From Pseudomonadota bacterium (GTDB taxonomy: Bacteria > Pseudomonadota > Gammaproteobacteria > Steroidobacterales > Steroidobacteraceae): 51,468 nt of DNA. The first letter of the stretch is position 1. The number at the start of each line of letters is the position of its first letter. Positions 44,644-51,468 of this stretch are shown here, piece after piece. The stretch lies in the NCBI GenBank assembly GCA_021797465.1, contig JAJZZR010000254.1:1-51468 (forward strand), written 5' to 3'. Under the pieces are notes generated by a model, which worked only from the letters and a program-made list of their open reading frames with translations, did no database searches and was not told where the DNA came from. A program made the position numbers and the translations under genes.

Positions 44644-44892
44644 ATGACCGACATCCAGCAAACCCTGGAGACCCTGCGCGCCGAGATCGACAAGATCGAA
44701 TCGCCGGAATTCCGCCTGCTCGCCCACTACATCGAAGCCTTCCACCAGAAGCATTCGGAGGAGATGAACGAGATGAAACAGACCTTCCTCGCCGCCAAGT
44801 TCGGCGCACGCGCCGTCATGTGGCTGTCGGTGGTCGGTAGCGGCATCGCCGTGATCTGGGCGGTCATCCATGGCCACGGGGTGATCAAATGA
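44644..44892 (+). CDS. Small membrane-anchored protein (82 aa), holin candidate
   Basis: AAGGAG SD. Coiled-coil N-terminus and a single C-terminal TM (AVMWLSVVGSGIAVIWAVI). Confidence 0.5.
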   Translation: MTDIQQTLETLRAEIDKIESPEFRLLAHYIEAFHQKHSEEMNEMKQTFLAAKFGARAVMWLSVVGSGIAVIWAVIHGHGVIK

Positions 44893-45455
44893 ACGCCATC
44901 CTCTCGTCCCTCGGCATCCTGCACGAGAGTGCCGAGCAGACCCGACTCATCACCCCCTACGCCGACGGACTCTCGGCCTTCGAGGCGTATCTCACAAGTT
45001 CGGCGCAGCCGGGGGCGCGGCTTCGCACCATGATCTACGGCTGCACCCTGCAACCGTTCTTCGATGCGCTGATCACGGCGCACACGGCCGGGTGCGACGT
45101 GCGGCTGATCTTCGACCACACCCAGGCGGCCGGACGCGCCGAGACGCCGCAGATCGAGCGACTCATGACTGCGGGGCTGGTGGACGGGGAGCACTTCCTC
45201 ATCGGCACCTCGCCCGTGCACCACCAGATCGTACATCTCAAAGCCACCGTCATTCGCACACCAGATGGAAAGGCGATGGTCGAGGACGGTTCCTGGAACT
45301 ACTCGGTGAGTGCCAGCCAGCAGTTGAACGACCTGTGCTTCACCGAATCCGACGCGCTCGCCCGCTATTACGAGCAGGCCTTCGACCGGCTGTGGGATTG
45401 GGTGAAAGCCAACGAACCGCAGTATCAGAAATCCACCACGGAGGATAAAAAATGA
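44889..45455 (+). CDS. PLD-superfamily (single HKD, Nuc-like) protein
   Basis: VHLKATVIRTPDGKAMVEDGSWNYS (HxK...GSxN). ATGA overlaps on both sides. Confidence 0.8.
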   Translation: MNAILSSLGILHESAEQTRLITPYADGLSAFEAYLTSSAQPGARLRTMIYGCTLQPFFDALITAHTAGCDVRLIFDHTQAAGRAETPQIERLMTAGLVDGEHFLIGTSPVHHQIVHLKATVIRTPDGKAMVEDGSWNYSVSASQQLNDLCFTESDALARYYEQAFDRLWDWVKANEPQYQKSTTEDKK

Positions 45456-46688: not shown

Positions 46689-46817
46689 ATGACTGCTGCG
46701 GTTGGCCATCCGCTCAACCTGCCGTCACTCGACCTCGGGCCGCTGGCCGCGCTCACGCTCGGCATGCTGGGGCTGGGCGGGCTGCATGTGGCGGAGCGGG
46801 TGAAGGGGGCGGCGTAG
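46689..46817 (+). CDS. Possible 42-aa hydrophobic peptide at the phage right end
   Basis: ATG...TAG ORF encoding MTAAVGHPLNLPSLDLGPLAALTLGMLGLGGLHVAERVKGAA. No clear SD. Confidence 0.25.
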   Translation: MTAAVGHPLNLPSLDLGPLAALTLGMLGLGGLHVAERVKGAA

Positions 46818-46890
46818 GGGAATGCTACCTACATGAAGTTGCGGAGTGGCGCGAAGCCGAAGTCTTGCCGACGATATGTCGATAACGACA

Positions 46891-49800
46891 TCACCACTCA
46901 GCCGGTTTGGCTTGTTTGACCGCCATTGCCTCGGTCATCCCACAGACGCTGACAAAGTCGCAATCCGCGCAGCGCCGCTTTCCCTCTCCTCGGTCGGCCG
47001 GACCTTGATGAAATGCGCGGTCGCGGATACGCGATGCGGTCGAGGCGACTGTCTTTCTCGCCTGATTGAGTGCATCCTCGTCCAAAGGTACCCGCAATTC
47101 CGCATTATCCTTGCCATCGGCGTCAAGGTATCGGACCAGCCCTTGCTCTGGCTGATATTCGAGCTCCTTCTTGGCTGCAACAGCGTACAGCGAGACTTGC
47201 AGCTTCATCTCCTCCTCGTCGAGCTTCTGATGCCTGTCAGAATCTGGGTCGCCTGATTTGAAGTCGATCAATGTGACCCGAGGCGGGTCGTCCTGCCGAA
47301 CGATGTCGATCGCGCCGGAGACCAGCGCACCGCCGTTGCCGTCCTCATGCTCGATCAGTGTCTCGAATTCCTTCTCCGGCTCGAATGTCAGTCGTCCCAG
47401 CTCACCTGCATATTGTTGAACATAGTCGGCAACGATCTTCAGACCCTTGGCCCTCATGTTGTCCGCGGGATCGCCAGTCGTGTATCGGAGATAGAAGAGC
47501 CCTTGATCCAGTAGTTTTTGAATTTCCTTTTCCAACTGCTTCCGGTTTGAAGCGAGTGCTGCCCATTTTTTCGGATCGGCATGAATCGCCCGCATCAAGT
47601 TGTGCACGCCGCGCCCGTAACCGAAAGCTTGATCAATGGTAGGCGCGAAACCGAGCACCTTGCGCAGGTAGAAGTCGTGAGGACACTCAAGGTAGTAGCG
47701 CAGGTCGGAGAACGAGGTGCTCAACCTGACATCGCGACGATGTTCCTTGGGCGCATATCTGAGCGCATCGAGCAATTCGCCGGATGCCGAGGTAACCATT
47801 CCGCCGATCTCGGCGACGACGGACTTCAATTCCTTGATGAACTTCGAGGTTCTGCTCCCGGAGTGGCTGATGAACAAAAAGCGCTCCGCACGGGTCATGG
47901 CGACATACATAAGGCGCCGTTCGCCGTCGTGGTTCTTATTATCGGCAAGCCCGGCAATGTCGATTTTCTTCACGATGTCACCGTCCAACGGCAGCTGGGG
48001 GACCCTGGAGGCGAAACTGCTTGGAAAACGTTGAGCGTTCACGTCTGCAAGGAATACGGCCGGGAACTCAAGCCCCTTGACGGCATGAATGGTGCTTATG
48101 GTGACGGCATCCGGCCGGACCATGAGGGGCTGCTCTTCGACTCGACCTTCCTCCGCCCCATACTGACAAAGCCCGATGATCTGCCAAGCGTAATCCTTTG
48201 CGCTGGTCCAGCCCGGCGTTTCTATACCCGTAATCAGCGAGCTGAGCGCACCTAAATGGAACAGCGCGGCCTGTCCCCGGCCGGAATCGGTATCCCAAGC
48301 ATCGACTTCCGCCTCCGACAGCAAGAGATGGAATAGCTGCTGGGGGAAAACCCGCCTCAGTGCGTTACGTGCCTTCAAAAAGGTACGCAGTTTCGGCGTG
48401 CGGAAAATCACGGCCTCGCTTGAGCTGAGTTGCCCACCCTCACCGACGCGTCGGCAGATTGCGCGCGCAGCGCGCAAAACGCGATCCTCCACGTCTCTGT
48501 CGAAGGGTAAGCCTGTCTGGCGCAAGGCTTTGGCAGCTTCCTTCAGTACCGTTTCAGGTTCCGGTGCACAACCGAGAACAGTATCGATCCGTTTCGGAAG
48601 ACTTTTCGGGTTGATCTCCGAACCGATGAACACCTGACAGCCCGCTGAGATCGCCAGCGCAGCTATGAAGAACAATATCTCCGGCTGGGAGAACAGATCC
48701 GGACCTGCCCGGACGACGCACGGAATCCCAGAGGACTCAAGGGCTTTCATGTAGGTGCGAACGTCAGTGGAGGACCGAACCAGGATAGCCATGTCCGAAA
48801 GGGTGAGCCCTCGGTGCGATCCGTCCTTCTTGTCGTGCAGGGCGCCTTCCGCCTCGGACGGAACCAATATGCGGATGGCCTCCGCAATCCATCCAGCTTC
48901 TTGCATCCGATCGTTGAAGCTGACCAGCGCCATGTGCGATGGGTGCTGATCCTTTCGCGCCTTGTTCCCGGCCTTCATTGCCGGAGTCTTCATCGTCCTG
49001 ATAGGTGAGATGCTTTCGGCCCACCTGTTTGCGAGTGCGATGATCCGAGGTGTCGAGCGGAAATTCTCCTCAAGATCTACGACCTGAGCCTCGGAAGACT
49101 TGGCAAACAGCTCCCACAACTCGGCGATGATCTCGACCTTGGCGCCACGAAATCCGTAAATCGACTGCCGATGATCACCGACCGCCGTCAGGCGGCCGCT
49201 TGATTCCGCGAGGAGATCGATCAGTCTCCGTTGAACCGGGTTGATATCCTGAACCTCGTCGACGACGAGATGAATCCGCCGGTCCACGATCTCCTGTCGC
49301 CGTTTTGCATCCGACCGGAGCCGCCGGAGAAATTCGGTCTGCGACGTGCTGAAATCGAGAAAGCGGCGGCACCGGAGGTAGGCATAGTAGCGCGCCGCTG
49401 CCCGGGAGAACGCCATAGCCTCGTCCGTGCCGCCAACATCGGTCAGTAATCGCGCCGCCTTACACCATTCGCTTTCCGGTTCCCCGAGATCGGCCGGCGG
49501 GTGTTCCGAGGACAGCTCGACTTCGAAACCATCGTTCTCGTGCAACTGGTCGTAGGCCTGGATGAAGTTTTCAAGCGTTGCGAACTGACCTTTGCCGGTT
49601 GCCTCCTTGAGGGACTTCAAGCCAAGCAGGCCGTTGAAACCGCGCAGGATCAATGCCGCACGCGCCCCTTCGTCCAGAATGTCGTAATTGTGATAGTCGT
49701 CCGACCAATATTCCCGGATCTTCGCCAGACAGTAGCCGTGGATTGTCCCCACGTACATCCCGCCGAGAGATACCTCTTCACCGACCGGCGTAATCGCTTC

Positions 49801-50046
49801 CAGCCAACTGCGGATGCGAAATTTCATTTCCTCAGCGGCGCGCTCGGTGAAGGTGAACGCGACGATCGCATCTGTGGAGACACCCTCGATGCCGACCCAC
49901 CAGGCGATCCGCCGCGCCATGACTTCGGTTTTTCCCGACCCTGCTCCGGCCACCACCAGCACATGGCGCTTTGAAGAGGTGACCGCCCGGCATTGGGCAT
50001 CGGTCAGGTCCTTTCGCAGGACCGAGGCGATCTGTTCGCGATCCAT
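46891..50046 (-). CDS. UvrD/PcrA-type SF1 helicase fused to a C-terminal Cas4/AddB-like PD-(D/E)XK nuclease with a 4-Cys cluster (1051 aa)
   Basis: AGAGSGKTE, VDEVQD, TIHAVKGLEFPAVF, YVAMTRAE. C-terminus has ECPHD, IDFKSG, QVSLYAVA and CADCDFVSVC. Confidence 0.9.
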   Translation of the reverse strand: MDREQIASVLRKDLTDAQCRAVTSSKRHVLVVAGAGSGKTEVMARRIAWWVGIEGVSTDAIVAFTFTERAAEEMKFRIRSWLEAITPVGEEVSLGGMYVGTIHGYCLAKIREYWSDDYHNYDILDEGARAALILRGFNGLLGLKSLKEATGKGQFATLENFIQAYDQLHENDGFEVELSSEHPPADLGEPESEWCKAARLLTDVGGTDEAMAFSRAAARYYAYLRCRRFLDFSTSQTEFLRRLRSDAKRRQEIVDRRIHLVVDEVQDINPVQRRLIDLLAESSGRLTAVGDHRQSIYGFRGAKVEIIAELWELFAKSSEAQVVDLEENFRSTPRIIALANRWAESISPIRTMKTPAMKAGNKARKDQHPSHMALVSFNDRMQEAGWIAEAIRILVPSEAEGALHDKKDGSHRGLTLSDMAILVRSSTDVRTYMKALESSGIPCVVRAGPDLFSQPEILFFIAALAISAGCQVFIGSEINPKSLPKRIDTVLGCAPEPETVLKEAAKALRQTGLPFDRDVEDRVLRAARAICRRVGEGGQLSSSEAVIFRTPKLRTFLKARNALRRVFPQQLFHLLLSEAEVDAWDTDSGRGQAALFHLGALSSLITGIETPGWTSAKDYAWQIIGLCQYGAEEGRVEEQPLMVRPDAVTISTIHAVKGLEFPAVFLADVNAQRFPSSFASRVPQLPLDGDIVKKIDIAGLADNKNHDGERRLMYVAMTRAERFLFISHSGSRTSKFIKELKSVVAEIGGMVTSASGELLDALRYAPKEHRRDVRLSTSFSDLRYYLECPHDFYLRKVLGFAPTIDQAFGYGRGVHNLMRAIHADPKKWAALASNRKQLEKEIQKLLDQGLFYLRYTTGDPADNMRAKGLKIVADYVQQYAGELGRLTFEPEKEFETLIEHEDGNGGALVSGAIDIVRQDDPPRVTLIDFKSGDPDSDRHQKLDEEEMKLQVSLYAVAAKKELEYQPEQGLVRYLDADGKDNAELRVPLDEDALNQARKTVASTASRIRDRAFHQGPADRGEGKRRCADCDFVSVCGMTEAMAVKQAKPAEW

Positions 50047-50058
50047 GGCTTCCCTTGG

Positions 50059-50532
50059 TCAGTTGGTTCGTGCTTTGCCGCTTGCGTCGGCTGACGCGCG
50101 AGCGCCTTTATCCGGGGACCGAACGACCGCCGATCGTATTCGATCGACGACGGACCCAAGGTCGTCTTCCACTTCGTGCTCCCAACACCGCAACACCGTC
50201 CAGCCGAGCTTCCCAAGCTCGGCGTCCACATCCCGGTCACGCTGCTTGTTACGCACTATCTTCTCGGACCAGAACGTAACATTGGTGGACGGCACCTTGT
50301 AATGCACTTCGCAACCGTGCCAAAAGCAGCCGTCGACGAACACCGCGATCTTGCAGCCCATGAAAGCCAAGTCCGGCCGCCCCGGAATGCTCGGGCGAAT
50401 CCTGTACCGCAACCCTGCATGCCAAAGCGCGCGCCGTAGCGCCATCTCCGGTCCCGTGTCCATGCCGCGGACACGCGCCATCTGTTCCGACTTGGTCAGC
50501 GGGCTCGCTTTGCGTCTTCTCTTTCTCTGCAT
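50059..50532 (-). CDS. vsr: Very-short-patch repair endonuclease
   Basis: RVRGMDTGPEMALRRALWHAGLRYR, AVFVDGCFWHGC, FWSEKIVRNKQRD, WTVLRCWEHE. Confidence 0.92.
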   Translation of the reverse strand: MQRKRRRKASPLTKSEQMARVRGMDTGPEMALRRALWHAGLRYRIRPSIPGRPDLAFMGCKIAVFVDGCFWHGCEVHYKVPSTNVTFWSEKIVRNKQRDRDVDAELGKLGWTVLRCWEHEVEDDLGSVVDRIRSAVVRSPDKGARASADASGKARTN

Positions 50533-50580
50533 CGCGTCATCTCGACCTCATGCACCCTCCGGTGCCGGCGCACATCGTCT

Positions 50581-50598
50581 TTACATTAGCGTTACATT
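50581..50598. promoter_or_regulatory. Direct repeat TTACATT x2 in the divergent promoter region (candidate RHH operator)
   Basis: TTACATT at 50581-50587 and 50592-50598, 11 bp apart, between vsr and the RHH gene. Confidence 0.4.
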
Positions 50599-50613
50599 CC
50601 GATAGGATGCCAC

Positions 50614-50856
50614 GTGACAGGCACAAGGGTCAATCAATTGGGTGACGTCGAACGCAAGACGGAGACCGTGAACTTGCGGCTATCTCCGAGGATGAAGGAG
50701 CTGCTGCGTATCGCGGCCGAGCAGGAGCATCGAACACTATCAAACATGATCGAGGCGCTCGTGCTTGATTACTGCGAAAGCAAGGGGATACCGGTGGAGC
50801 CGGGAGAAAAGGCCGCCGGGACAAAAAAGAGACCCATCACCGCAACTAAAGGGTGA
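50614..50856 (+). CDS. Ribbon-helix-helix (CopG/Arc-like) DNA-binding protein
   Basis: TETVNLRLSPRMKELLRIAAEQEHRTLSNMIEALVLDY (beta strand plus two helices pattern). GTG start. Confidence 0.7.
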   Translation: MTGTRVNQLGDVERKTETVNLRLSPRMKELLRIAAEQEHRTLSNMIEALVLDYCESKGIPVEPGEKAAGTKKRPITATKG

Positions 50857-50876
50857 TTCACACGGCGACCCTCAAG

Positions 50877-51468
50877 ATGAAGAAGAAATCCAGCACACGT
50901 ACGGCCATAGATTTGTTTTCGGGTTGCGGCGGATTAACCCAAGGCCTCCGCGATGCGGGCTTCGCCGTGGGCGCGGCTGTTGAGATCGATGCTCTCGCTG
51001 CGGAAACGTATGCGGCCAACCACCCCGACGTAAAGCTGTTCAACACCGACATAAGGGGCATCCCGGCGTCCGAGATCATGAAGGCTTGCGGTCTTGCAAA
51101 AGGCGAACTCGATCTGCTCGCCGGGTGTCCGCCTTGCCAGGGTTTCTCCCGCATCCGGCTCAACAACAAGAAGGAGCGGATGGACGATCCGCGCAACCGG
51201 CTTATCGACGAGGTCCTCCGCCTGATCGGCGAGCTGCAGCCCAAGGTCGTGATGCTGGAAAACGTGCCCAACCTCGCCCGCTATACTCGCTATCTGAACT
51301 TCAAGAGGGAGCTGCGCAAACTCGGCTACGATGTGGTCGACAAGGTCCTTGATGTCGCGGACTTCGGTGTACCCCAGCGTCGCAAGCGGCTTGTCGTTCT
51401 TGCGTCGCGCCTCGGGCAGATTTCTCACCCCTTGCCGGTCGACGAACGCAAGACGGTTAGAGATGCCA
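50877..51468 (+). CDS. dcm: DNA (cytosine-5) methyltransferase, N-terminal 197 codons (truncated by the window end)
   Basis: Motif I DLFSGCGG, motif IV PPCQGFS, motif VI ENV, motif VIII QRRKR. The frame is open to the last base. Confidence 0.9.
   Translation, partial: MKKKSSTRTAIDLFSGCGGLTQGLRDAGFAVGAAVEIDALAAETYAANHPDVKLFNTDIRGIPASEIMKACGLAKGELDLLAGCPPCQGFSRIRLNNKKERMDDPRNRLIDEVLRLIGELQPKVVMLENVPNLARYTRYLNFKRELRKLGYDVVDKVLDVADFGVPQRRKRLVVLASRLGQISHPLPVDERKTVRDA

What the first reader, a model, noticed from the sequence alone, without database searches (positions are those of the whole stretch)
46891..51468. Helicase-nuclease fusion occupies the restriction-enzyme slot of a dcm/vsr locus
Layout: an RHH gene plus a C5 methyltransferase run rightward; vsr and, 12 nt later, a 1051-aa UvrD/PcrA-type helicase fused to a Cas4/AddB-like PD-(D/E)XK nuclease with four Cys run leftward. 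In m5C restriction-modification loci, the gene co-transcribed with vsr opposite the methylase is normally a small restriction endonuclease. No such ORF is visible here; the only candidate effector is the motor-nuclease fusion. Two TTACATT direct repeats one helical turn apart (50581-50598) sit in the shared promoter region, as expected for C-protein-like control by the RHH protein. The island abuts the prophage end and by eye is less GC-rich than the phage (not computed). ATP-dependent m5C-linked restriction with separate motor proteins is known (NgoAVII/CglI type). I know of no characterised system whose effector is a UvrD-Cas4 fusion, so this could be an ATP-driven restriction or defence module. 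The window ends inside dcm, so more partner genes may lie beyond.
Basis: partly seen in the sequence, partly recalled or inferred. Interest (0 to 1): 0.7.

Follow-up and report, generated by a model that had tools for sequence, protein, structure and literature searches.

The report
UvrD-Cas4 helicase-nuclease with Dcm and Vsr
A large motor-nuclease protein sits beside a cytosine DNA methylase and its mismatch-repair nuclease in a mobile gene cassette that recurs across many bacterial phyla; it is probably an untested phage-defence module, and the gene pairing was already noted by comparative genomics in 2017.

Summary
A 1051-aa UvrD-type helicase fused to a Cas4-like four-cysteine nuclease ("HelNuc") lies 12 nt after vsr. 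An RHH gene and a C5 methylase diverge from a promoter carrying two conserved TTACATT repeats.

- **Linkage:** of 56 non-redundant homologous loci with enough flank, 53 have a Dcm and 51 a Vsr within 3 kb. The usual layout is a dcm>HelNuc>vsr operon. One Dcm lineage accompanies HelNuc down to about 30% identity.
- **No conventional restriction enzyme:** none lies beyond the window. The next genes encode a pyrimidine-nucleoside-phosphorylase-like protein and a kinase/AAA/CARF protein.
- **No site-reading domain:** HelNuc folds like AddA/UvrD/RecB/AdnB. It looks like an end- or nick-loading degrader, not a site-specific endonuclease.
- **Other contexts:** relatives also sit with Type III Mod/Res and inside BREX loci without Dcm.
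- **Vsr:** it is canonical, and orphan dcm-vsr pairs exist.

Hudaiberdiev et al. 2017 already described the Dcm/Vsr and Type III contexts of "UvrD-Cas4" and predicted a defence role. I found no experimental work.

Best reading (about 0.5): a methylation-gated, ATP-driven DNA-degrading defence cassette. Main rival: a Vsr-nick excision repair kit.

The parts
46891..50046 (-). HelNuc: 1051-aa UvrD-type SF1A helicase fused to a Cas4/AddB-like PD-(D/E)XK nuclease with a four-cysteine (iron-sulfur type) motif
   Evidence: ORF. Pfam UvrD-helicase, UvrD_C and PDDEXK_1. NCBIfam cas4, addA and uvrD partial matches. Motifs and cysteines conserved. AF2 model pLDDT 87.9. Foldseek top hits AddA, UvrD, RecB, AdnA/B.
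47857..50007 (-). Helicase core (about residues 14-730): Walker A GAGSGKTE, DEVQD, VGDHRQSIYGFRGA, ISTIHAVKGLEF, ERRLMYVAMTRAER
46894..47718 (-). Nuclease domain (about residues 777-1051): C788, D914, D928-x-K930 (IDFK), Q950xxxY954, C1026-x2-C1029-x5-C1035
   Evidence: Pfam PDDEXK_1 on residues 777-1035. PADLOC Cas4 models match the isolated domain. Conserved columns are listed.
50059..50532 (-). vsr: canonical very-short-patch T:G mismatch endonuclease, co-transcribed with HelNuc, which starts 12 nt downstream
   Evidence: Pfam Vsr. TIGR00632 at 126 bits, above its cut-off. Aligned to E. coli Vsr 1cw0.
50580..50608 (+). Sigma-70-like promoter TTTACA-N17-TAGGAT for the RHH-dcm operon, overlapped by the direct repeats TTACATT-N4-TTACATT (50581-50598), a putative RHH operator
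   Evidence: Promoter scan. Repeat is unique, 0.03 expected. Repeats are conserved in loci at about 80% nucleotide identity while neighbouring intergenic DNA diverges.
50614..50856 (+). Small ribbon-helix-helix (CopG-like) protein upstream of dcm. The likely true start is TTG 50638 (72 aa).
   Evidence: Weak Pfam RHH_5 and TacA1 matches. Conserved in every arrangement-A locus, with homologues starting at MGD(V/I)ERK.
50877..51468 (+). dcm: C5 cytosine DNA methyltransferase, first 197 codons, cut by the window end (356 aa in full)
   Evidence: PADLOC MTase_II and NCBIfam dcm. Full-length Pfam DNA_methylase in L021. Full-length similarity to M.HaeIII.

Best explanation
The window holds one copy of a mobile, methylation-based defence cassette built around one lineage of C5 methyltransferase.

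Proposed roles:
- Dcm marks the host genome.
- Vsr repairs the T:G mismatches that 5-methylcytosine deamination creates.
- HelNuc is the ATP-driven executor. Like AddA, AdnB or RecB, it is proposed to load at a DNA end or nick, unwind 3'->5' and shred the DNA.
- HelNuc has no site-reading domain of its own. Discrimination between self and foreign DNA must therefore come from its partners. The most likely route is Dcm acting as a Mod-like targeting or licensing subunit (Type III logic). A second possibility is Vsr, or another nuclease, supplying the entry nick.
- In this particular arrangement, RHH autoregulates the dcm operon through the TTACATT repeats. This would keep methylase expression controlled when the cassette enters a new host.

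What is shown: the domain content, intact catalytic motifs, the fold, the conserved gene linkage, the defence-island and mobile context, and the conserved operator.

What is inferred: that the cassette defends against phage; that HelNuc degrades unmethylated DNA; how HelNuc is targeted; that RHH binds the repeats.
For: 1. Near-obligate linkage. Of 56 non-redundant HelNuc loci with adequate flanks, 53 have a Dcm and 51 a Vsr within 3 kb, and 50 have both. In 31 the order is dcm>HelNuc>vsr with overlapping or nearly abutting ORFs.
2. The pairing is ancient. Relatives at only about 30% HelNuc identity still sit in dcm>HelNuc(>vsr) operons, with the same Dcm lineage (HMM E 1e-148 to 1e-158). The Dcm target-recognition region is conserved.
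3. Minimal islands of only dcm-HelNuc-vsr lie amid housekeeping genes in Bradyrhizobium, and dcm-HelNuc alone in Oceanicaulis. No other conserved ORF accompanies them.
4. Context is defensive and mobile. The window cassette lies at a prophage end next to type I HsdR. Other copies directly abut BREX pglZ-brxL, Z1-domain, GHKL, DUF262 and HNH genes. HelNuc is 64-75% identical across many phyla, including an archaeal MAG.
5. The wider family is attached to methyltransferase-based systems. Members at 24-29% identity sit in operons with Type III Mod+Res, as PMC5704561 reported.
6. One HelNuc copy is disrupted by an IS element while its neighbouring Dcm, Vsr and RHH stay intact; a 99%-identical sister locus is undisrupted.
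7. The operator-like repeats on the dcm promoter are conserved.
8. Precedent: a Vsr-like protein makes loss of its partner m5C methylase costly in Caulobacter (PMC12907096).
Against: - No experiment exists.
- HelNuc has no recognisable DNA-sequence or methyl-reading module.
- I found no Dcm-HelNuc fusion; the one unusually long relative scanned (P0192) is a Pif1-UvrD-Cas4 fusion.
- Intact HelNuc occurs without any visible Dcm or Vsr inside BREX loci. L106 lacks the Dcm that its sister locus L068 has, although the two were grouped at 95% or higher HelNuc identity.
- Vsr is canonical, so a pure repair role for the operon is plausible.
- HelNuc evolves more slowly (mean 67% identity) than Dcm (56%) or Vsr (48%). 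By general knowledge restriction nucleases tend to diverge quickly, so this would be atypical for one.
- In Type III contexts a complete restriction enzyme is already present. There HelNuc is ancillary, not the 'R' subunit.
Confidence: 0.5

Rival explanations
1. Repair kit rather than restriction. The cassette is an orphan Dcm plus a self-contained very-short-patch excision system. Vsr nicks 5' of the mismatched T. HelNuc loads at that nick, unwinds and cuts the T-containing strand, helped in some loci by a DEDDh exonuclease. A polymerase then refills the gap. This copies the MutH-UvrD-exonuclease logic of mismatch repair.
For: Vsr is canonical. Vsr and HelNuc are always co-transcribed and often overlap. 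A DEDDh/RNase T-type exonuclease is inserted next to HelNuc in 9 of 75 non-redundant loci. The HelNuc fold matches UvrD and AddA repair enzymes. Orphan dcm-vsr operons without a restriction enzyme are an established precedent (background in PMC12907096). HelNuc is strongly conserved, as housekeeping-type enzymes are.
Against: HelNuc pairs with Dcm where no Vsr is detected (L115, L117, L124). The same family sits with Type III Mod/Res, and inside BREX loci with no C5 methylase or Vsr visible. Context is enriched for defence islands and mobile elements. By general knowledge, VSP repair in E. coli needs only Pol I and ligase after Vsr, so a 1051-aa iron-sulfur helicase-nuclease seems excessive.
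Confidence: 0.25
2. Generic add-on end-processor. HelNuc is a RecBCD/AddAB-like module that plugs into any methylation-based system (Type III, BREX, Dcm). It would finish off DNA already cut by another nuclease, which would be useful when phages inhibit RecBCD. Alternatively it would resect and repair self-inflicted breaks. Either way it has no direct functional dependence on Dcm methylation.
For: The family occurs in three different methyltransferase contexts (PMC5704561). It folds like AddA, RecB and AdnB. A relative is fused to a Pif1/RecD-like second motor, giving a RecBCD-like bipolar design. HelNuc is intact without Dcm in BREX loci. The 2017 authors proposed an 'ancillary role'.
Against: It does not explain why one specific Dcm lineage stays glued to HelNuc, often with overlapping ORFs, from 88% down to about 30% HelNuc identity. 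It also does not explain the 2- and 3-gene islands that contain no other nuclease.
Confidence: 0.2
3. Coincidental neighbours. HelNuc is an independent single-gene defence or repair gene that merely shares a defence-island hotspot with an orphan dcm-vsr pair.
For: Defence islands mix unrelated systems. In this locus type I HsdR, the kinase/AAA/CARF protein and the phosphorylase-like gene are also adjacent.
Against: 53 of 56 and 51 of 56 loci show the linkage. ORFs overlap. One Dcm lineage is co-inherited across phyla and identity ranges. Every other neighbour family occurs in at most 11 of 75 loci.
Confidence: 0.05

Closest known systems
UvrD-Cas4 fusion proteins in the Dcm (+Vsr) gene context (Hudaiberdiev et al. 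2017, BMC Evol Biol 17:232, PMC5704561)
   Same: The architecture matches: an SF1 UvrD-like helicase plus a Cas4-like pfam12705 nuclease. The neighbours match: Dcm and Vsr. The second reported context, Type III Mod/Res, was reproduced here for distant relatives.
   Different: The paper is comparative genomics only. This locus has the divergent two-operon layout with an RHH regulator and conserved operator repeats. It is also joined to a phosphorylase-like plus kinase/AAA/CARF gene pair. In the passages I read neither these features nor the BREX-embedded Dcm-less variant is mentioned.
Type III restriction-modification (EcoP15I-like Mod2Res)
   Same: A methyltransferase is encoded next to, and often translationally coupled with, a single polypeptide that joins an ATP-dependent motor to a PD-(D/E)XK nuclease. 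The logic that the nuclease-motor has no specificity without the methylase would explain the harmless Dcm-less copies.
   Different: Here the methylase is a C5 enzyme, not a beta-class N6/N4 Mod. The motor is SF1A (UvrD), not SF2. The nuclease carries a Cas4/AddB four-cysteine cluster. No interaction between Dcm and HelNuc has been shown.
AddAB / AdnAB / RecBCD break-resection helicase-nucleases
   Same: These are the best structural matches (AddA E 1.7e-29; UvrD, RecB and AdnA/B follow) and sequence matches (AdnB, AddA). They share the UvrD motor plus RecB-family nuclease, and the iron-sulfur type cysteine arrangement known from AddB.
   Different: HelNuc is a single chain with no partner-subunit gene (no AddB, AdnA, RecC or RecD) beside it. 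It is encoded in a mobile cassette with a methylase, not at a housekeeping repair locus.
NgoAVII / CglI ATP-dependent m5C restriction systems (PMC4267653)
   Same: A C5 methylase is combined with an ATP-hydrolysing motor protein needed for cleavage.
   Different: Those systems, as described in the paper's abstract, have a separate R protein and a DEAD-family N protein. By my recollection the R protein carries a PLD nuclease and a B3-like DNA-binding domain, and the N protein is SF2. HelNuc is SF1 and carries its own PD-(D/E)XK nuclease, and no such R protein is present in the cassette.
E. coli dcm-vsr very-short-patch repair operon
   Same: A C5 methylase and a canonical Vsr are genetically linked, without a restriction enzyme.
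   Different: Here a 1051-aa helicase-nuclease is inserted between or beside them, and the unit is horizontally mobile and lies in defence islands.
Gabija GajB (UvrD-like defence helicase)
   Same: The helicase part gives the PADLOC matches (E about 1e-47).
   Different: By general knowledge GajB is about 500 aa, has no nuclease domain and works with the OLD-type nuclease GajA. The match covers only the generic UvrD core.

Membership tests
UvrD-Cas4 fusion family (PMC5704561) | N-terminal UvrD-like SF1 helicase with intact motifs | tested here: met
   Pfam UvrD-helicase at E 3e-48 and UvrD_C. Motifs I-VI are conserved.
UvrD-Cas4 fusion family (PMC5704561) | C-terminal Cas4-like (pfam12705) PD-(D/E)XK nuclease with four cysteines | tested here: met
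   PDDEXK_1 at E 1e-26. Cas4 models match. C788 and C1026 are invariant and C1029 and C1035 at least 90% conserved across 57 sequences.
UvrD-Cas4 fusion family (PMC5704561) | Encoded next to Dcm (often with Vsr) or to Type III Mod/Res | tested here: met
   Dcm in 53 of 56 and Vsr in 51 of 56 loci. Type III Mod+Res lies beside distant relatives.
UvrD-Cas4 fusion family (PMC5704561) | Falls inside the published monophyletic clade | not tested
   The published tree was not compared. Membership is inferred from architecture and context only.
Classical Type II m5C restriction-modification system | Cognate site-specific restriction endonuclease gene beside the methylase | tested here: not met
   The genes beyond dcm are a pyrimidine-nucleoside-phosphorylase-like protein (PDB 1brw, E 1e-18) and a kinase/AAA/CARF protein. 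No other conserved ORF occurs across 75 loci.
Classical Type II m5C restriction-modification system | Controller (C) protein with operator repeats | tested here: inconclusive
   The regulator is RHH-type, precedes the methylase gene rather than a nuclease gene, and matches Pfam only weakly. The repeats are conserved and overlap the promoter. Binding was not tested.
Type III restriction-modification | Beta-class N6/N4 Mod methyltransferase | tested here: not met
   The methylase belongs to the C5 family PF00145.
Type III restriction-modification | Res subunit: SF2 helicase-like ATPase plus nuclease | tested here: not met
   The motor is SF1A UvrD-type.
NgoAVII/CglI-type ATP-dependent restriction | Separate restriction (R) protein plus a DEAD-family N protein | tested here: not met
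   No such pair is in the cassette. HelNuc is SF1 with its own nuclease. The finer R-protein domain composition (PLD plus B3-like) is from my own knowledge, not from a tool result.
AddAB/AdnAB/RecBCD | Hetero-oligomer with a dedicated partner subunit encoded alongside | tested here: not met
   No AddB, AdnA, RecC or RecD-like neighbour appears in any of the loci examined.
AddAB/AdnAB/RecBCD | UvrD-type motor plus RecB-family nuclease fold | tested here: met
   Foldseek top hit is AddA 4cej_A at E 1.7e-29, followed by RecB and AdnA/B.
Dcm-Vsr very-short-patch repair pair | Canonical Vsr linked to a C5 methylase | tested here: met
   TIGR00632 matched above its cut-off. The alignment to 1cw0 keeps the conserved catalytic and DNA-contact blocks. 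The Dcm gene is adjacent.
Gabija | GajB helicase partnered with a GajA OLD-type nuclease | tested here: not met
   No GajA gene is in the window locus. HelNuc is twice the expected size and has its own nuclease.

The most novel reading that the evidence does not exclude
One lineage of C5 methyltransferase, usually with Vsr, may be the hub of a modular, ATP-dependent m5C self-marking defence 'supersystem' with interchangeable effectors. The effectors seen are the SF1 UvrD-Cas4 helicase-nuclease, an AAA_15/21 (OLD-like) ATPase, and a pyrimidine-nucleoside-phosphorylase-like protein paired with a kinase/AAA/CARF protein. In this reading HelNuc is directed or licensed by the methylase or by the methylation state of the DNA. 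It could act as a Type III-like Res equivalent. Alternatively, methylated sites could act as a Chi-like stop signal. This would be a new class of restriction in which a break-resection type enzyme is the effector.
Probability: 0.3. Interest if true: 0.75.

Novelty: new member of a known kind. Interest (0 to 1): 0.5.

Why it matters
The UvrD-Cas4/Dcm/Vsr cassette is widespread. My searches returned hundreds of close relatives in metagenomes across many phyla, on prophages, integrase-bearing islands and chromosomes. It is compact (2-4 genes), yet I found no experimental study of it in the paper library. If HelNuc is a methylation-gated degrader, it would add a class of ATP-dependent m5C restriction with an SF1 resection-type effector. 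It would also explain why many 'orphan' Dcm-Vsr pairs persist. If HelNuc is instead a Vsr-coupled excision enzyme, it would define a portable alternative very-short-patch repair pathway. The same Dcm lineage also carries other unexplored partner genes, so a single experimental system could open several questions at once.

Tried and rejected
- **Conventional restriction enzyme beyond the window: rejected.** Contigs with the identical or 96%-identical HelNuc show dcm followed by a 408-aa protein. It has no Pfam hit but matches pyrimidine-nucleoside phosphorylase structures. A 1247-aa kinase/ORC-CDC6-like protein follows and matches PADLOC 'CARF6--CARF_STK_AAA' over its full length.
- **Match to a named defence system in PADLOC: none.** Only generic GajB and RTasHel helicase hits and Cas4 nuclease hits appeared.
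- **Rosetta-stone Dcm-HelNuc fusion: none seen.** The 1419-aa relative P0192 is a Pif1-UvrD-Cas4 fusion.
- **Extra reader domain in HelNuc: none seen.** The confident AF2 model matches AddA, UvrD, RecB and AdnB, and I saw no additional recognisable module.
- **Co-divergence of HelNuc with Dcm or Vsr by pairwise identity: uninformative.** Rank correlations were weak (0.19 and 0.04), probably because divergence is saturated.
- **Literature searches for an experimental study: none found**. Nothing turned up on the phosphorylase plus kinase pair either.
- **tRNA or att clues to the prophage boundary: none.** No tRNA gene is in the window.
- **Recognition sequence of Dcm: not assignable.** It shows only full-length similarity to M.HaeIII.
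- **CARF classification paper: not held in the library**.

Full report
**Observation.** The ORFs are as described. HelNuc is 46891-50046 (-), 1051 aa. vsr is 50059-50532 (-), leaving a 12-nt gap to the HelNuc start. The RHH ORF is 50614-50856 (+). dcm starts at 50877 and runs off the window end.

HelNuc carries Pfam UvrD-helicase, UvrD_C and PDDEXK_1 domains. Its C-terminus matches Cas4 models. An alignment of nine homologues at 70-75% identity keeps every SF1 helicase motif. It also keeps the nuclease residues D914, D928/K930 and Q950/Y954, and four cysteines: C788, C1026, C1029 and C1035. A 57-sequence alignment reaching down to about 27% identity keeps these residues invariant or at least 90% conserved.

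Vsr passes the NCBIfam vsr cut-off and aligns with E. coli Vsr through the conserved catalytic and DNA-contact blocks.

The RHH assignment rests on a sub-threshold Pfam hit plus a typical strand-helix-helix sequence pattern. Homologues begin at MGD(V/I)ERK, so the true start is probably TTG 50638.

The TTACATT-N4-TTACATT repeat (50581-50598) is unique in the window, with 0.03 expected by chance. It overlaps the -35 and spacer of the only sigma-70-like promoter in 46700-51000. It is conserved in loci whose surrounding intergenic DNA has diverged. The cassette is 56-59% GC, against mostly 60-67% in the phage part.

**What lies beyond the window.** Contigs encoding the identical HelNuc (L020-L023) or a 96%-identical one (L015-L019) extend the locus. 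dcm is 356 aa. A 408-aa gene follows 10 nt later, then a 1244-1247-aa gene that overlaps it by 8 nt. Convergent YgjP-like and type I HsdR genes come next.

The 408-aa protein has no Pfam hit but matches pyrimidine-nucleoside and thymidine phosphorylase structures (1brw, E 1e-18). The large protein has a weak protein-kinase match and an ORC-CDC6-like AAA region. It matches PADLOC 'CARF6--CARF_STK_AAA' over its full length at 1332 bits. So no conventional restriction endonuclease lies just beyond the window.

Nucleotide homology between the window and a cassette in a different prophage context (L032, an IMG/VR contig) is confined to 46888-51466. There an AAA_15/AAA_21 ATPase replaces the two downstream genes. 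The four-gene unit therefore moves as a block.

**How general is the linkage.** HelNuc homologues at 64-88% identity occur in MAGs assigned to Verrucomicrobiota, NC10, Actinomycetota, Thermodesulfovibrionales, Bacteroidota, Alphaproteobacteria and Gammaproteobacteria, in Bradyrhizobium, and in an archaeal MAG.

I pooled 112 loci from genome, metagenome and viral collections and searched them with HMMs built from the window-type proteins. They collapse to 75 groups at 95% HelNuc identity. Of the 56 groups with at least 1.5 kb upstream and 1 kb downstream:
- 53 have a C5 methylase within 3 kb;
- 51 have a Vsr within 3 kb;
- 50 have both;
- 31 show dcm>HelNuc>vsr directly adjacent, typically overlapping or within about 20 nt;
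- 4 show the window's divergent layout.

The adjacent Dcm is always one lineage, 50-60% identical over about 95% of its length. Its target-recognition region is conserved.

In Bradyrhizobium isolates the three genes form an island between housekeeping genes. No other ORF family accompanies the cassette in more than 11 of 75 loci.

A search of 1.8 billion representative proteins shows a tight clade (54% identity or higher), then a gap to 900-1000-aa UvrD-PDDEXK proteins at 30-39% identity. Sampled members of that outer group are again in dcm>HelNuc(>vsr) operons with the same Dcm lineage: Desulfofundulus, an Acidobacteria MAG, Oceanicaulis and several viral contigs. Still more distant members (24-29% identity) sit in operons with Type III Mod and Res.

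**Prior knowledge.** Hudaiberdiev et al. 2017 (PMC5704561) described exactly this. They found a monophyletic 'UvrD-Cas4' fusion in two conserved contexts: Type III Mod/Res, and Dcm with Vsr in several loci. They concluded that it is a component of several defence systems and plays an ancillary role in site-specific unwinding and cleavage. It is the only paper in the library that uses the term 'UvrD-Cas4'. Seven other searches found no experimental study. The neighbourhood is therefore known as a prediction but uncharacterised.

**What HelNuc looks like.** The AF2 model is confident (pLDDT 87.9, pTM 0.89). Foldseek places it with AddA (E 1.7e-29), UvrD, PcrA, Rep, RecB and AdnA/AdnB. Sequence search agrees. 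I saw no additional recognisable domain. These enzymes load at DNA ends or nicks and act processively; they do not read sites. One relative is fused to a Pif1/RecD-like second motor, a RecBCD-like design. No Dcm-HelNuc fusion was seen.

**Complications for the 'restriction slot' idea.**
1. Orphan dcm-vsr operons are an established arrangement, so the absence of a small restriction enzyme is not anomalous in itself.
2. A sub-branch of HelNuc lies inside BREX loci, immediately upstream of the genes I read as pglZ and brxL from their sequence and size. It is usually preceded by a DEDDh exonuclease. In L098, L106, L064 and L007 no Dcm or Vsr is visible. L106 and L068 were grouped at 95% or higher HelNuc identity, yet only L068 has a Dcm.
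3. In Type III contexts a complete restriction enzyme is already present.
4. HelNuc evolves more slowly (mean 67% identity) than Dcm (56%) or Vsr (48%). This is the opposite of what I would expect, from general knowledge, of a restriction nuclease.
5. The same Dcm lineage (55-56% identical to the window's) also occurs with no HelNuc detected in the fetched flanks. It lies on islands carrying an integrase and TraI-type relaxase (Pseudomonas) or other conjugative-element-like genes such as AcaB, SSB and topoisomerase (Thiobacillus). Its neighbours there are the phosphorylase-like gene, the ORC-CDC6-like kinase/AAA protein, an AAA_15/21 ATPase and Vsr. The phosphorylase-plus-kinase pair also follows dcm-HelNuc-vsr in L069 and diverges from dcm-HelNuc in L196. 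So HelNuc is one of several alternative or additional partners of this methylase.

**Mechanism.** My best reading (about 0.5) is a methylation-based defence cassette. Dcm marks self. Vsr limits the mutational cost of 5-methylcytosine. HelNuc is the ATP-driven degrader, and its targeting comes from its partners. The most plausible route is Dcm acting like a Type III Mod. This would explain the translational coupling, the long co-inheritance of one Dcm lineage, and why Dcm-less HelNuc copies are tolerated. An alternative is entry at a nick made by Vsr or another nuclease. An IS-disrupted HelNuc beside intact Dcm, Vsr and RHH and the operator-controlled dcm promoter are compatible with restriction-modification-like biology. 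The Caulobacter ScmA/VsrA study shows that a Vsr-like nuclease can make loss of its methylase costly (PMC12907096).

The main rival (about 0.25) is that Vsr, HelNuc and sometimes a DEDDh exonuclease form a nick-unwind-degrade excision pathway for T:G repair, parallel to MutH-UvrD-exonuclease. A third reading (about 0.2) is a generic RecBCD-like add-on with no direct dependence on Dcm. Chance adjacency is effectively excluded. All functional steps are inferred; none is shown.

**Verdict.** The locus is a new member, in a variant layout, of a predicted but uncharacterised kind. It is moderately interesting as an experimental target. The modular partners of this Dcm lineage are the freshest lead.

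Noticed in passing
Beyond the window: L021:4586-5812(-) and L021:850-4593(-); also L069, L196-L199: A pyrimidine-nucleoside-phosphorylase-like protein (about 400 aa, no Pfam hit) is paired, with overlapping ORFs, with a roughly 1240-aa zinc-ribbon / kinase-like / ORC-CDC6-like AAA protein. The large protein matches PADLOC 'CARF6--CARF_STK_AAA' over its full length. The pair recurs with the same Dcm lineage both with HelNuc (window clade, L069, L196) and with no HelNuc detected in the fetched flanks (L197-L199). I found no literature on the pair.
   Followed up: partly
L032:6345-8114(-); L197:14092-15858; L198:14517-16352; L199:11541-13376: A 590-610-aa AAA_15/AAA_21 ATPase sits directly next to the same Dcm lineage. 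Its PADLOC hits are HEC-04, AriA, PtuA, GajA/OLD and ATPase-Toprim models. It replaces the phosphorylase plus kinase pair in L032/L033 and accompanies that pair in the L197-L199 loci.
   Followed up: partly
L106, L098, L064, L007, L012, L068 (for example L106:6279-14771): A BREX-embedded variant: a zinc-ribbon DEDDh exonuclease, then HelNuc, then genes I read as pglZ and brxL from their sequence and size (not confirmed by a family search). In four of these loci no Dcm or Vsr is visible. Elsewhere the same two BREX genes lie directly upstream of dcm-HelNuc-vsr (L055, L087, L097).
   Followed up: partly
L027:13226-13795 and 8 other non-redundant loci: A DEDDh/RNase T-type exonuclease (PADLOC 'DEDDh', a CRISPR-associated type) is inserted between HelNuc and Vsr, or just upstream of HelNuc, in 9 of 75 loci.
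   Followed up: partly
L041:3649-4522: An insertion of about 870 bp encoding a transposase-like ORF (IS5-like by my reading) interrupts HelNuc. The sister locus L033 is 98-99% identical and undisrupted. Dcm, Vsr and RHH remain intact in L041.
   Followed up: yes
L005:13582-14433(-); L012:9161-9430: Stand-alone ORFs homologous only to the C-terminal 200 aa or so of the kinase/AAA/CARF protein (the putative CARF part) lie right after Vsr or before the exonuclease in dcm>HelNuc>vsr-type loci.
   Followed up: no
window 44889-45455 (+): A 188-aa PLDc_2 (phospholipase D / Nuc-like) gene sits within the prophage late region, just before the phage lysozyme (45452-45901). It is conserved in the related prophages L015 and L020. 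Its function there is unclear.
   Followed up: no
P0192 (1419 aa, from the representative-protein search): A single polypeptide fuses a Pif1/RecD-like helicase, a UvrD helicase and a Cas4-like nuclease. It is a RecBCD-like bipolar motor-nuclease in one chain.
   Followed up: no
L027:7839-8729, L009, L040, L060, L079, L083, L088 and others: HNH_2-family proteins, together with a 905-aa L083 protein that clustered with them, lie next to the cassette in about 11 of 75 loci. Only the L027 member was scanned (Pfam HNH_2). I suspect they share an N-terminal domain and may be modification-dependent nucleases; neither point was checked.
   Followed up: no
window 50614-50640: The listed GTG start of the RHH ORF is probably too far upstream. 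Homologues have single-base indels in this stretch and start at the position of TTG 50638, which follows an AAGGG ribosome-binding-like site.
   Followed up: yes
L031 (archaeal MAG GCA_038873835.1): A HelNuc 71% identical to the window's, with dcm and vsr, lies on a contig assigned to a Methanomethyliaceae archaeon, next to an N4/N6 methylase plus an RE_MjaI-like gene. This is either cross-domain transfer or a binning error.
   Followed up: no
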